From the human T2T-CHM13v2.0 reference genome, Homo sapiens: a stretch of 64,000 bases of DNA. The number at the start of each line of letters is the position of its first letter. Position 1 is the stretch's first letter. Shown piece after piece: positions 35,014 through 44,524 of this stretch. The notes beneath the pieces are model-generated. The model was given only the letters and a program-made list of their open reading frames with translations. It was not told the origin of the DNA and searched no databases. The DNA lies in assembly GCF_009914755.1 (NCBI RefSeq), contig NC_060930.1. One strand, given 5' to 3'. Position numbers and translations under genes: made by a program.

Positions 35014-35027
35014 ATGAGGCCCCGGAG
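35014..35027 (+). other. LIN28B: 3' end of a putative CpG-island first exon with uAUG and strong donor
   Basis: GACC-ATG-AGGCCCCGGAG|GTAAGC. Confidence 0.6.
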
Positions 35028-35591
35028 GTAAGCAGCCGGCCCCGCGGCCGCGCGAGTGCGAGCGTGGCCGGGTGTGCGTGCGGGTGCGGACGCCGCTCGC
35101 GGTCCCGAGTCTGGCACGTGAGCAACGTCGAGGGGAGCTCCGTGCTGAGGAGCAGGAAGAAAAGAGGAGGCGCGAGCGCCAGGGAGGGGCGAGGACTGGG
35201 CACCGCGGGGAAGTGACAGGTCTCGCAGCAAGTTGCGGTTCGGAAGCCGGCGCGCCGCGTCTTTCCTTCGCCGGCCCTGATTTATTGCCCCGGTGCTGCC
35301 GCTAAGACGCGGGCAGTCGATGTACTTCCGGGTTCACACCTTTCTCTCCCCGCTCGGTGCTGCTGGGTCGGCGCCCGGTGTGGGCACTGCGTTGCCACAG
35401 CGGCCGCCCAGGCTCGCCGCTGCGGTTGCTGCCGGGCGGCCAAAGCCGGCTTGGAGCGGGAGGGCGGGGCGGGGCAGGGCGGGGGCGCAGGCCACGCGGG
35501 GGCGCAGGGCGCGAGGGTGCGGCGCAGGCTGGGGTCCCGGCGGCGGGTCCTCGCGGCCGGTGCCGGCTCGTCTGGGACGCACGGGGCCGCG

Positions 35592-35604
35592 CCGCCAGAG
35601 GGCG
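35592..35604 (+). promoter_or_regulatory. CTCF-like motif
   Basis: CCGCCAGAGGGCG closely matches the core CCACCAGGGGGCG. Confidence 0.55.
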
Positions 35605-37961
35605 TGCGCACCTCCCTTTCGCGCTCCGCAAGCCGAACTGCTTTGTACCGGGCAGGCGTCGGGGATCGTTTTTGCTTTGGTATCGGTGATGTAAATTCAT
35701 GAATTAAAATTAAGGATTTTGAAAAGAACGGGGAAGAACGCACTTGGATTTAGGTTGTTTTTGAAAAGGAAAAACCAAAGAGGAAATGATACGTTTGCAG
35801 GAGCATTAACTGACTACTGACTGGAACATTGGATGCGGGTGCTTTGTGAAGATTTGTACTCCAAAAACTTTTTTTAAAAATTGCACGTTGGTAAATATTG
35901 AGTGTTTTCGAGTAAAATCTAACAGTATGTATTTAGTGCCCTTATTGCGGAAATTTCTTAAATGTAAGTAATAGTAAGTCCGCCATTTTGAATTGTTTCA
36001 TGTAACACAGAATGAAATCTTAGGTGCCTGTGTTTCCTTGAGTTCCCTTCAGTTCTTTGTGGGTTTGTTTTCATCCGTAGGTTTTTAAGGTTGCCAAGTG
36101 TCACTGTTCATGGAACTAAATTCTCCACTGTAGATTTTTATACCTATTATTGTTAATGCAAGGGGAAAATAAATTATACTCCTATTCTATTGTAGTTTTT
36201 TATTTATCGATCACAAATACTGTGGAAGTGAAAATTACACCTGACAACTAGTATTAGAATGAATTTAAAACGTTTTACAACATTGCTGGGAAAATATGAC
36301 TTAAAGTGATTTTTAATCAAGAAAATATTAATGTTTCTTTTTTTGGTGCTGGTTATTACCATATTTACTTAGATAATGCAAAAGTGCTTTTTTAAAAAGC
36401 ACATTTTTACGTCCAACAATAAGTATAAAACATCACAGTTTTATGAAAGCTTTCAGGGAAGATTTGAAAGTTAAGGGTGAATTCTTGGAAATATATGCCA
36501 ATTTGTATGAAAAAATAAATTTGCTATGAAATTTATGCCTTTTTTTCTTCTGTGAATTTGCATAGATTTTATAGAGGAGTCATATGATAAATTAACAGAA
36601 GAGAATGTAATAATCAGTATTCCATTTTCAATAATAATTACACCCTTGTCCATCTTAGGGAAGGTTCTTGCCTGCCAAATTATTTATCTTTGCATGTATG
36701 AAATACAGCAATCCAGTGTGCTTAATTTCCTACAGAGCTTTAGAAATGAAACTGACACAAGGCCTCTTCTACCAATGAATAAAAAAGTTTTATTTGACTT
36801 TTCCATTTTACAAGTAGGATCAGCTAATCTTTGCTTTACAATATAAGGTCATAAAAATTTAAGGAATTGGATCGGGTTGTAATGCATATTGGTTTTTGGT
36901 AACTTTATAGGTGCTTCTCAATTAATAGATCTGGAACTAAATGATTCAATAATTATATTCTCATTAATCCTTGTCAGACTGTATGGTGTCTTACTATGTA
37001 TGTTCTCTGCTAGACTTCAGAAACAATAAAAAGTTTGTTGTGAAATTAGTCAAGATTTAAATTTAAAAATCGCTAGGTTGTGAGGCGAGGTATGTCAATC
37101 TTATACTTTGTAAGGGAAGCAAATCGAGATTTAAAATAGTAGTGCTCAAAGTTAGTCTTCAGAATAACTTGTTTTTAAGTTTATTGCACATATAAATCCC
37201 AAAATACGGTGAATTTAAGTTTGGCTTTTTTTTTCCGGTTTACTCTGAAGAAAGAGAAGATTAAATAGATCTTACCTGCCTAAAAGTTTGATAATGCTTG
37301 GTATCTGATCTGGTAACATGATTAGGGTTTTGTGACACACTGCTGTCATAATTTACAAATCATGATTAAAGGAAGAAAATAAGTTATTAAATAAAACATG
37401 TATGAATAACAGTCTTCAGGTGTGAGTGATGTCTCTTTAAAAATAATTGAAGCGCTAGGCACAGCTACCAAATTTGGGGACTGTATTAGCAAGTTCAGGT
37501 CAGGAAATGATCTATAAACATTTATCTTAATCCAAAGTTGCATTGATTTAAAAAATGAAACATGGGCATACAGGGATGAATCAATTTAGAAGTAATTAAA
37601 TTATTGATTATGAAAGTGGCGTTACAAATTTTTGGACAACTAAAGCGTTTTCTTATTAGGTATTTTTTAATAGAATTTAATTTTCTTTTAAAATTCTCAG
37701 ATACTCAGTTTTTTTTGTTTAAATACTTTTGAACCTGTACCTTATTTCCTTGACTTTTAAAGGGACTGTATTTTCTTTACAAATAACTACTGTTTTTGAT
37801 GAACCACAAAGTAAAGTATTTCTAGCTTGCCAAGAAGAACAATGGAAATTCTTTACATTCAAATACTTCAGGTTGATTTATATGAATAAGTCTTCGAATA
37901 TATGAAATACAGAATCTCATTGTTTTGAGAAACTTGCCCACCATGTACTTGTATACATGTA

Positions 37962-41439: not shown

Positions 41440-42201
41440 GCAATTTTTGAGTGAATTACAATATATAATTCATAATAGCAGTCATTTTCCTTTACATTTA
41501 GTTACAACAGTGGATTTTAACAATGAACAATATATAATGTATTTGTGAAGAATATTGTTATATATTTTAGTAGAAAGTGTGAAATCTAAGAATGTTTGTG
41601 ATGGATACTCTTTATAAGTTAGGCACTCCTATAGCAGTAAATCATATATTTAAATTAAAATAATTGGAATTATTTTGTATATATGTATTTTATATTTGTA
41701 ATATATGTATTTTATATTTATAAGAGATTAATTGCCTATCCAATTATTTTTTATGAAAAGATGGTTTAACAAAACATTTTGCGTACTTTTTTTTTTTTTT
41801 TTATAAAAGCCAACCTAGGAATAATCAACCTCGGTACAGGAATTCGTTGTCATTGGTTCAAAAAATATAATGAATACAAAATAATGCCAGAATTATAATA
41901 ATGAGCTAAATATACACAGTCTCTCTAATCACAGAGCATAGAGTTCAGTTGGGAGAGAGAACATTTTCATGGACTGTTATAATAAACCACAGTACACTAT
42001 TACATGGTAGAGACATTGTATTCAGTATGGAACAGTATGAAAAAGAGCTCTAAGTAGAGATCTAAATGATGAATGGAGATTATTCTCGTGTAGGGGCAAA
42101 GAAGTGTATTTTGGGATTTCATAGGTTTAGGTTTTTGTTTTCTAAGAAAACGTAATGAACTCTGTTAAATAAAATATTTTAACAAAATGTATTAAATACA
42201 A

Positions 42202-42497
42202 GGCCTGGCACGGTGGCTCATGCCTGTAATCCCAGCACTTTGGGAGGCCGAGGCGGGTGGATCACAAGGTCAGGAGTTCGAGGCCAGCCTGGCCAACATA
42301 GTGAAACCCCATCTCTACTAAAAATACAAAAATTAGCCAGGCATGGTCGCACATGCCTGTAATCCCAGCTACTCGGGAGGCCGAGGCAGGAGAATCGCTT
42401 AAACCCAGGAGGCAGAGGTTGCAGTGAGCCTAGATTGCACCATTGCACTCCGGCCTGGGCAACAAGAGCAAAACTCCGTCTAAAAAAAGAAAAAAAA
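42202..42497 (+). mobile_element. AluSg-like
   Basis: Sense dimer with GGATCACAAGGTCAGGAGTTCGAG. Confidence 0.9.
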
Positions 42498-44475
42498 TTA
42501 TTACATATAAATACTCATGTATAAAATGTCAGTGGCTGTTTTTGGAGTATTCATGCATTTGAAGAATTATTTTAACTCCTGATATTTCATTTCAAAAAAC
42601 AGTCACCTAGAATAAGAATATGAACATTTAAAATTATAAATATTTTACAGCTTATACCTGTCTCATTCCTATTATAGTTGTTCAGTCAATATTGGATGGA
42701 TACATGATAATATCTACATTTAAACAATGCTATTTTTTCTACTCTTGTTTTTGAACAATTTTAAACCATTAATATTAGTGAAAAACATTAATTGTGAAAT
42801 AATTTCATGTTACTTTTCCTTTGAAGCGGACATTACTGTTAAAACTAGTATAACCAAGGACATCATATGTAAGTTTGAATAGTGAAAAATCTGAATGTTA
42901 TTGTCAGTCAAATTGGCTTTTTTAAAAAAACTCCAAAAGCTAATAGTTAGAGCTCTTGAATTAAATAGCATTATTTAGCTAACTTTCTTACATTATTTGA
43001 TTTTGGCTTTATTAAACCTATTTGTGATAGTTTGTCCAAATTATTTGCAAAGTTTTTTTTTTTTTAACAAACCCTATCTATTGTATTTACACATCTTTAA
43101 AATATGTTGGCTTGAATTCTTCTCTAAATATAAGCAGATAGGATTAAGAATAGGCTGTGGACTATTAGAATAGAAAGGCAGAAGCTACAGTTGTGCTGAA
43201 ATATTTATGTACAATAATTAAATATACTCACACATAAGCCAGATGTGCAAAATAAAACTTGATACAGGATCAATGTAAAGGAAAGCTCTGTTTCATTAAG
43301 TGTCTGTAATGAATTTTGTTAAAGTTAGGATCTGTCATTATCTTGTGTCTTTTGGTTGTAAACACAGGCTAAGTGAAGGATTTAATGTACAGAGGTTCAC
43401 GTGCCTTTTGTTCACATTCTTCCTCTATTCTTTTCAAATCTAACTCGGTGGGATTGTCATCCTTTGTAAAAAGAACCTTGGGTCAACATTCAGTAGAACC
43501 CTGCACTTGGAAAAGTCTCCATTTCCTTTTGAGAAGAAAATTAGATTGCAACTTAAAGAATTTGCACAGAATGGTTTTACTTATTTTTTGTGAGTTGATA
43601 TAGTAGGTCTAGTGTGTAAAACTTAGTTAAGGAAAGACAACTCTGGGTGTAGCAGGTGAGTGCATGCATGTTCACACCAATCTGTTTTGCAAACCTTAAT
43701 AACTGACCCAAGGATAAAAACAATAATTTAGTAGTCACCAGGAGTTCCTCTTCCAATCACTATACTTGATTACTGTGTGGCCTCTTTATTGCAAGTTTTA
43801 TTGTGTTGTGGCATCTGCCAATGGATGTATTAGAAACATCAATATTTACTCATATTTAAAAAATGAGAACTGTTTGCTTTTTAAAAAACATTAACCCATT
43901 TAAAAATATAAGTTAAAATGCATATTAGATATTTAAAAATATACTTAATGATTAAATGTATTACCATTAATGTAATTTTTCATTCACTTGACTGCAACAG
44001 CCCCAATATCTATTTTATAGTACCATCGTTAGATTCTCATGATTTATCTTCTGAAATATATCTGAAGAGAATAGTCAAAGAAGTTAGTTCTTCAAGAAAC
44101 ATGATATTCTAGGTTAAGTAGATTTTAACTGTGCTTGGAAAAAATACTAGTATTTTAAAATTACAGTGTAAAATTAAATATTAAAATTTAAACTGCATTG
44201 TTCGTGATATTGGGATCTTTTGACTGCATCTTAATGGTCTTAAATGTTGTAAATGTTCTTTAAACTAGTGTCCTCTACTAGATATAAAAGGCAAGTATAT
44301 GCCAATTGGTTATCTAATTTTGCTAGGTGAGTCTTAAACTGTAAAAAAAAGTTTACAGGTCTCTTCACAGAGTCAAAACCTGGGCATTTTATTGCTTTCT
44401 AATGGCCATTAGGATGAAGAAGAGGCAATTAAATAGGCAATTAATGTAGTACTGACTTGAGCTCTCTGATTTTAG

Positions 44476-44524
44476 GTTCTTCAGAAGAGGATGAGGTCAT
44501 TCAACCAGGTTTCATCAGCCCCAG
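44476..44524 (+). CDS. LIN28B: 49-nt alternative LIN28B exon (VLQKRMRSFNQVSSAP+G; internal ATG 44491)
   Basis: Branch point TACTGAC 44450-44456, acceptor TTTTAG|, donor CAG|GTTAGT; ends in phase 1, matching exon 2; no stop in frame. Confidence 0.8.

What the first reader, a model, noticed from the sequence alone, without database searches (positions are those of the whole stretch)
35014..44494. Splice-assembled Arg-rich uORF whose stop overlaps the start of an extended LIN28B (AUGA)
Seen: GACC-ATG 35014 (A at -3) lies 14 nt before a consensus donor. Joined to 44476 it reads MRPRRFFRRG-TGA, with TGA 44492-44494 overlapping ATG 44491-44493, which starts MRSFNQVSSAPGGASK... in the LIN28B frame (8 aa longer than canonical). 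Established: AUGA overlaps mediate termination-reinitiation in some viral and cellular RNAs, and overlapping uORFs otherwise repress. Use of this junction is inferred.
Basis: partly seen in the sequence, partly recalled or inferred. Interest (0 to 1): 0.7.

Follow-up and report, generated by a model that had tools for sequence, protein, structure and literature searches.

The report
Short overlapping uORF in LIN28B isoform
An annotated alternative first exon of the human growth gene LIN28B carries an extra start codon that, if spliced as inferred, opens a ten-codon frame ending on the main start codon; it likely just dampens protein output, as many such elements do, and the striking overlap is about what chance gives.

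Summary
The sequence facts are exact. ATG 35014 lies 14 nt before a donor; joined to 44476 it gives a 10-codon frame whose TGA (44492-94) overlaps ATG 44491, the start of a LIN28B form 8 aa longer than canonical. Both exons are RefSeq-annotated; the join itself is inferred. The overlap is not special: in shuffled leaders holding any upstream ATG, 28% end in AUGA, because the main frame begins Met-Arg (ATG AGG). That N-terminus is old: 33 of 75 vertebrate LIN28B hits carry it, from mammals to sharks. Conservation of the upstream ATG could not be tested; one bird model lacks it at the human spacing. The leader has no UGGGA motif, so calicivirus-type TURBS reinitiation fails its defining test. 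Best reading (0.6): an ordinary short overlapping uORF that lowers LIN28B translation from the CpG-island promoter, with the main frame reached by leaky scanning, as shown for the gene's other uORF (PLUM) in mouse. Coupled reinitiation: about 0.08. I found no report of this uORF and no Ribo-seq call for it in the tables I could read. New member of a known kind; low interest.

The parts
34300..35700 (.). CpG island holding divergent 5' ends of LIN28B-AS1 (34542, - strand) and the LIN28B alternative first exon (34980, + strand); one CCAAT box at 34604
   Evidence: (GC 0.68-0.79, CpG o/e about 1); hub annotation. Bidirectional promoter function is inferred
34980..35027 (+). Alternative first exon (48 nt), RefSeq-annotated; in-frame TAG at 35001 blocks any upstream extension of the LIN28B frame
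   Evidence: hub table; one match in the genome (lower bound)
35014..35027 (+). uORF start (gacc-ATG-a) and first 14 nt; donor GAG|gtaagc follows
   Evidence: unspliced, the frame stops after 5 codons
44476..44524 (+). Shared 49-nt second exon: 15-nt leader, main ATG, 11 codons of the conserved alternative N-terminus, donor CAG|gttagt
   Evidence: hub table; one match in the genome
44476..44494 (+). Last 19 nt of the uORF with TGA 44492-44494 overlapping main ATG 44491-44493 (AUGA)
31007..31135 (+). Upstream alternative first exon (the published AluJb promoter exon, by match of position and length of the extension); its ATG 31118 is in frame with 44491 and gives 22 new residues
   Evidence: 22-aa AluJb extension cited in PMC10760525; repeat family not determined here
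51147..52249 (+). Different, known 87-codon overlapping uORF of the canonical leader (human PLUM counterpart), same -1 frame and same gacc-ATG context
52225..52227 (+). Next in-frame ATG (canonical Met41, inside the cold-shock domain), 140 nt after the uORF stop in the spliced RNA: candidate landing site for ordinary reinitiation
   Evidence: use is hypothetical

Best explanation
The CpG-island first exon of LIN28B holds an out-of-frame ATG that, on the inferred splice to the 44476 exon, opens a ten-codon frame ending across the main start codon, and this likely acts as an ordinary repressive uORF: ribosomes that start there would mostly be lost to the 258-aa protein, which would be made by ribosomes that scan past it. 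Steps: (1) shown - sequence, frames, contexts, annotated exons; (2) inferred - the 35027-44476 join and a 5' end upstream of 35014 in most molecules; (3) inferred - initiation at 35014, from the A at -3 and a 34-nt leader; (4) inferred from established mechanism - a 40S subunit terminating on top of the main AUG has no distance in which to regain initiator tRNA, so main-frame output comes from leaky scanning; (5) inferred - the AUGA geometry is a by-product of the old Met-Arg start (ATG AGG puts TGA in the -1 frame), not a selected coupling signal.
For: Exact anatomy. Any -1-frame uATG without an earlier stop must end at this TGA; 28-29% of shuffled leaders with a uATG do. Exon-2 N-terminus in 33 of 75 LIN28B hits, residue 2 being Arg in 29 of the 33, so protein-level constraint explains ATG-A. 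No UGGGA in the leader, no unusual structure (z=-0.2). Reviews state that overlapping uORFs are bypassed by leaky scanning and that even a 1-nt overlap probably precludes typical reinitiation (PMC10275272; PMC5972666; passages). In the same gene the mouse PLUM uORF suppresses Lin28b in a start-codon-dependent way (authors' rebuttal in PMC12657964 peer-review file). Four of five short Arg-rich uORFs tested repressed a reporter (PMC10032668).
Against: No translation evidence for this uORF: the only LIN28B ORFs in the tables I could search were on the canonical transcript (1 row in PMC10032668; 3 rows in one truncated file of PMC10908861); larger catalogs were unreadable. Conservation of the uATG is untested at DNA level, and the wagtail model P0049 cannot hold a -1-frame ATG at the human spacing (only at -42 codons) and has an in-frame Met at -22. 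CpG-island starts are usually dispersed, so some 5' ends may lie past 35014 (own knowledge). The abundance of this isoform is unknown. The six bases before the main ATG are conserved (QK plus an A-initial codon in 3 of 3 non-mammal models showing them), which could reflect more than Kozak or splicing constraint.
Confidence: 0.6

Rival explanations
1. Neutral bystander: the ATG is a lineage-restricted accident in a minor or dispersed-start leader and has no meaningful effect on LIN28B levels.
For: ATG is not depleted in this island (8 seen, 9.3 expected from base composition); chance of the geometry is high; not seen in the Ribo-seq tables searched; not placeable at the same spacing in wagtail.
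Against: Good -3 context and 34 nt of annotated leader; those tables came from samples or annotations that may lack this isoform; a translated uORF represses whether or not it is conserved (own knowledge).
Confidence: 0.22
2. Coupled termination-reinitiation: ribosomes finishing the short uORF, still holding eIF3/eIF4F, restart on the overlapping AUG, so the uORF feeds or meters the 258-aa isoform without a TURBS.
For: AUGA is a documented stop-start geometry (PMC10275272); a short uORF could retain eIF3, as speculated for SLAMF1, and TURBS-free cellular coupling exists for CASQ2 (PMC5972666). In 6 of 33 homologues the start is Met-Met-Arg, which would keep a -1-frame stop on a start codon.
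Against: No UGGGA in the 63-nt leader; nearest GGGA lies 99 nt before the end of the stop, upstream of the annotated 5' end; documented cases follow long ORFs; CASQ2 coupling is about 82-fold below the upstream product; Kozak 2001 found barely detectable reinitiation at an AUG just upstream of a stop (recalled; paper not held). Met-Met and Met-Arg give ATG-A for coding reasons alone.
Confidence: 0.08
3. C/EBP-like isoform switch: after the uORF the 40S passes 44491 and reinitiates 140 nt on at Met41 (52225), making an N-terminally cut LIN28B that lacks the start of the cold-shock domain, in an eIF2-sensitive ratio.
For: Ten codons is within the reinitiation-permissive size (under 30 codons in mammals); next in-frame ATG is 140 nt downstream with G at +4; C/EBPalpha and beta use short uORFs this way (named; geometry recalled).
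Against: An out-of-frame weak ATG (52217) comes 8 nt earlier; Met41 has C at -3; the product would lose the conserved GHCKWF strand and likely be unstable; no such protein evidence seen. The 209-aa isoform in PMC12247766 is ascribed to promoter choice and is not shown to be this product.
Confidence: 0.07
4. The Arg-rich decapeptide itself acts (stalls its ribosome or binds the translation machinery).
For: 16 short Arg-rich uORF peptides bound translation components, and Arg-to-Ala changes relieved repression for two (PMC10032668).
Against: Three of five Arg codons are dictated by the junction and by exon 2; no conservation evidence; LIN28B's only row in that paper's supplements is the 87-aa uORF.
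Confidence: 0.03

Closest known systems
Short overlapping uORFs (uoORF/oORF) of mammalian mRNAs, bypassed by leaky scanning
   Same: Out-of-frame AUG in adequate context whose frame ends past the main AUG's first base; predicted to be mutually exclusive with main-frame initiation.
   Different: Overlap is minimal (AUGA), and the uORF exists only after splicing across a 9.4-kb intron.
SLAMF1 long-leader uORF (29 codons, UGAUG overlap)
   Same: Short cellular uORF whose stop shares bases with the main start in an alternative 5' leader.
   Different: SLAMF1 has a UGGGA-related sequence and a 1-nt overlap; this leader has none and an AUGA overlap.
PLUM, the Lin28b canonical-leader uORF (PMC12657964)
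   Same: Same gene, same -1 frame, same gacc-ATG context; represses Lin28b in mouse reporters.
   Different: PLUM is 85-87 aa, on another first exon, Ribo-seq and MS supported, conserved and functional as a protein. This uORF is 10 codons and stops before reaching the PLUM-shared part of the frame.
Calicivirus and influenza B TURBS termination-reinitiation
   Same: AUGA stop-start geometry.
   Different: No long upstream ORF, no UGGGA motif 1 40-90 nt upstream, no supporting stem.
AluJb-LIN28B / LIN28B-TST (Guo 2018, Jang 2019; seen only through PMC10296230, PMC10363060, PMC10760525)
   Same: Upstream promoter giving an N-terminally extended LIN28B; by frame analysis it uses the same second exon (22 new residues, matching).
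   Different: There the upstream ATG is in frame and 44491 is internal; here it is out of frame.

Membership tests
TURBS-dependent termination-reinitiation | Stop and start overlapping or within about 20 nt | tested here: met
   AUGA at 44491-44494
TURBS-dependent termination-reinitiation | UGGGA motif 1 within 40-90 nt upstream of the stop | tested here: not met
   No TGGGA, GGGA or TGGG in the 63-nt leader; no TGGGA even with the 5' end moved to 34900
TURBS-dependent termination-reinitiation | Motif 2/2* stem presenting motif 1 | tested here: not met
   No motif 1 to present; folding energy equals shuffles, z=-0.2
TURBS-dependent termination-reinitiation | Long translated upstream ORF | tested here: not met
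   10 codons
TURBS-dependent termination-reinitiation | Downstream output depends on upstream termination site | not testable with these tools
   Needs reporters
Overlapping repressive uORF | AUG in the annotated 5' leader, out of frame, upstream of the main AUG | tested here: met
   Leader position 35 versus 64, frame -1, given the inferred join
Overlapping repressive uORF | Stop codon at or beyond the main AUG | tested here: met
   TGA 44492-44494
Overlapping repressive uORF | Context and cap distance adequate for recognition | tested here: met
   ACC at -3 to -1, no G at +4, 34 nt from annotated 5' end; true start-site spread unknown
Overlapping repressive uORF | Translated in cells | tested here: inconclusive
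   Absent from two searchable supplement sets; larger catalogs unreadable
Overlapping repressive uORF | Removing the uAUG raises main-frame output | not testable with these tools
   Shown only for the gene's other uORF in mouse
Conserved (peptide) uORF | uAUG, phase and stop kept across species | tested here: inconclusive
   No vertebrate DNA available; stop side compatible by protein; uAUG not possible at the human spacing in one bird model of unproven orthology
Reinitiation-permissive short uORF (GCN4/ATF4/C-EBP type) | Stop upstream of, and spaced from, the restart codon | tested here: not met
   Not met for 44491; would be met for 52225 at 140 nt

The most novel reading that the evidence does not exclude
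LIN28B's CpG-island isoform is a cellular case of TURBS-free stop-start coupling after a short uORF: ribosomes terminating at the AUGA restart on the spot, so that the three annotated promoters set three translation regimes on one gene (in-frame extension from the Alu exon, uORF-coupled 258-aa form from the island, PLUM-overlapped 250-aa form from the canonical promoter), only the last of which can make PLUM.
Probability: 0.08. Interest if true: 0.7.

Novelty: new member of a known kind. Interest (0 to 1): 0.24.

Why it matters
LIN28B dosage matters in development, placenta and cancer, and promoter switching is a known route to its activation. A repressive uORF peculiar to the CpG-island leader would mean RNA from that promoter yields less protein than RNA from the Alu promoter, and both upstream promoters would give LIN28B without PLUM, whose start codon lies in the canonical first exon. 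That is a useful, testable detail about one gene, not a new mechanism. If coupling at the AUGA were real it would be a compact native model for TURBS-free reinitiation. A side result: the 44476 exon's N-terminus, described in print as part of a tumour or placenta extension, is an old vertebrate isoform.

Tried and rejected
TURBS: rejected (no motif 1). Special RNA structure: rejected (z=-0.2 on 300 shuffles). In-frame upstream start in the island exon: none (TAG at 35001; no in-frame near-cognate codon in exon 1). Frame-restoring acceptors at 44490 or 44496 would fuse the uATG to LIN28B but lack a pyrimidine tract; the plausible one at 44485 keeps the AUGA ending with 7 codons. Skipping the 44476 exon gives a 7-codon uORF and no in-frame start before Met41; not excluded. 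Retrocopies carrying the junction: each exon gave one match, its own locus (lower bounds). Protein searches for read-through of the first exon in mammals: none among 75, 43 and 7 hits or among the 111 new representatives screened by pattern of 150 listed. tblastn of the wagtail extension against the window gave only weak low-complexity hits to the island on the other strand, so orthology of that exon is unproven. Alignment A1 was returned as a summary only and added nothing. Placental imprinted region: PMC6390544 passages give no coordinates, so I do not assign it to this island. Primary papers of Guo 2018, Jang 2019 and Kozak 2001 were not held. Supplements I could not see may bear on translation and conservation: PMC13010147, PMC7530721, three large files and the cut part of file 11 of PMC10908861. 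No structure or complex prediction was run; none bears on the question.
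Full report
Observation. Every coordinate holds. ATG 35014 has A at -3 and lies 14 nt before GAG|gtaagc. That ATG runs in the LIN28B frame and replaces 3 canonical codons by 11, hence +8 aa. The hub's RefSeq table has exons 34980-35027 and 44476-44524, so both splice sites are annotated and the uATG is 34 nt inside the annotated 5' end. The table does not state the join, so it stays inferred. The exon lies in a CpG island (about 34300-35700), 438 nt from the opposite-strand start of LIN28B-AS1.

Chance. The main frame begins ATG AGG, so a TGA sits in the -1 frame regardless. 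In 20,000 shuffles of the 63-nt leader, 11.9% (mononucleotide) and 3.0% (dinucleotide) gave an AUGA-ending uORF, and 28-29% of shuffles with any upstream ATG did. Of five Arg codons, one is made by the junction and two by exon 2; two or more Arg in the three free codons has P=0.073. ATG is not depleted in the island (8 against 9.3 expected).

Three leaders. Frame analysis shows the upstream exon 31007-31135 spliced to 44476 puts ATG 31118 in frame and adds 22 new residues, matching the 22-aa AluJb-LIN28B extension cited in PMC10760525 (passage). The canonical leader has three upstream ATGs; the first (51147, 87 codons) is the human counterpart of PLUM (PMC12657964, first two of ten parts read; catalog row c6riboseqorf102). 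The finding is a different element on the third leader. It shares PLUM's frame and gacc-ATG context but stops before the part of the frame shared with PLUM, so the island and Alu leaders cannot make PLUM. A 258-aa isoform is named in PMC12247766, there ascribed to the AluJb start region (passage).

Conservation. Of 75 LIN28B proteins at E<=1e-20 among 296 candidates (90%-identity cluster representatives, mostly predicted models), 33 begin with the exon-2 type N-terminus, 14 with the canonical one, 10 with a further type and 18 otherwise (pattern-based). The 33 include placentals, dunnart, birds, turtles, gecko, a frog, gar, bichir, horn shark and chimaera. Residue 2 is Arg in 29, Ser in 3, Ile in 1; six start Met-Met-Arg. 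The five codons before the Met, VLQKR in human, read VPQKT in wagtail and box turtle and ILQKM in chimaera, where a preceding Gln fits the acceptor. So the exon and its start are old, and ATG-A is explained by protein sequence, though Arg could be CGN in some species. The upstream ATG could not be tested on DNA: the genome tool has no relatives for this genome. By back-translation, wagtail P0049 could hold a -1-frame ATG only 42 codons upstream, not at the human -10, and has an in-frame Met at -22; its upstream exon is not proven orthologous.

Translation evidence. LIN28B appears once in six supplement files of PMC10032668, as the 87-aa uORF, and three times in one cut file of PMC10908861, all on the canonical transcript. 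Larger catalogs were unreadable. This is weak negative evidence. Literature searches with LIN28B plus uORF (44 papers, 20 listed), AluJb and isoform, CpG island, LIN28B-AS1 and promoter, recalled accessions and alternative first exon showed no description of this uORF in the listings; most listed papers were not opened.

Mechanism. TURBS reinitiation needs a UGGGA motif 40-90 nt upstream of the stop of a long ORF (PMC5972666, PMC10275272; passages). The leader has none and folds like its shuffles. The same reviews say overlapping uORFs are bypassed by leaky scanning and that even SLAMF1's 1-nt overlap probably precludes typical reinitiation. In mouse reporters the PLUM uORF suppressed Lin28b, the effect was lost on ATG mutation and grew with a stronger context (authors' rebuttal; the supplement legend's non-significant values refer to panel d, which the rebuttal treats as RNA level). 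Short Arg-rich uORFs repressed in four of five reporters. I therefore commit to repression with leaky-scanning access (0.6), then neutral bystander (0.22), coupled reinitiation (0.08), reinitiation at Met41 140 nt downstream (0.07) and an active peptide (0.03).

Comparison and verdict. It works like a short overlapping uORF and meets the sequence-level features of that class. It is not a TURBS element: three defining features were tested and not met. Closest cases are SLAMF1's stop-start uORF and PLUM. The isoform is annotated, the class is common, and the overlap is near chance. What may be unreported is this particular uORF and the depth of conservation of the exon-2 start. New member of a known kind; interest 0.24.

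Papers seen: passages of PMC10296230, PMC6390544, 10.64898/2026.08.12.739961, PMC10363060, PMC10275272, PMC5972666, PMC10760525, PMC12247766, PMC10032668 (plus supplement search); two parts and supplement passages of PMC12657964; supplement rows only of PMC10908861; listing only of PMC13010147 and PMC7530721; nothing of Guo 2018, Jang 2019, Kozak 2001 (second-hand or recalled). Domain position of Met41 and C/EBP uORF geometry are recalled.

Noticed in passing
window 51773-51803 +: Intact candidate first coding exon not in the RefSeq table (starts MGSVLNQQY, donor CAA|gtaaag, in phase with 52115). The same N-terminus type opens 10 of 75 LIN28B hits, from whale and horse to coelacanth, bowfin and chimaera: a deeply conserved, apparently unannotated human isoform start.
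   Followed up: partly
window 50385-50445 +: Another intact in-phase candidate first coding exon (starts MAEKPVKYN, donor ATG|gtttac, weak), matching dolphin and camel models P0010 and P0014 at 86%; lies in an annotated enhancer.
   Followed up: partly
window 51147-51254 +; P0003: The lemur model P0003 fuses the first 36 residues of the PLUM frame (100% identical to human) in frame to LIN28B, implying an alternative donor that would make a PLUM-LIN28B chimera.
   Followed up: no
window 34980-34990 +: The annotated 5' end starts with C and 11 uninterrupted pyrimidines, formally a 5' TOP-like tract; depends on the exact start site.
   Followed up: no
window 44482-44490 +: The purine-rich bases before the main ATG read QK plus an A-initial codon in human, wagtail, turtle and chimaera: conserved untranslated bases, possibly a splicing enhancer plus the -3 A.
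   Followed up: partly
window 51181-51192 +: Three-codon uORF in the canonical leader whose TGA overlaps the next ATG (51192, TGATG); called by 2 of 4 Ribo-seq tools in PMC10908861. A stop-start overlap with some translation support, leading into the PLUM frame.
   Followed up: no
window 47851-47944 +: Stretch matching the N-terminus of the yak model P0020 at high identity with a frame break: conserved upstream sequence, probably non-coding.
   Followed up: no
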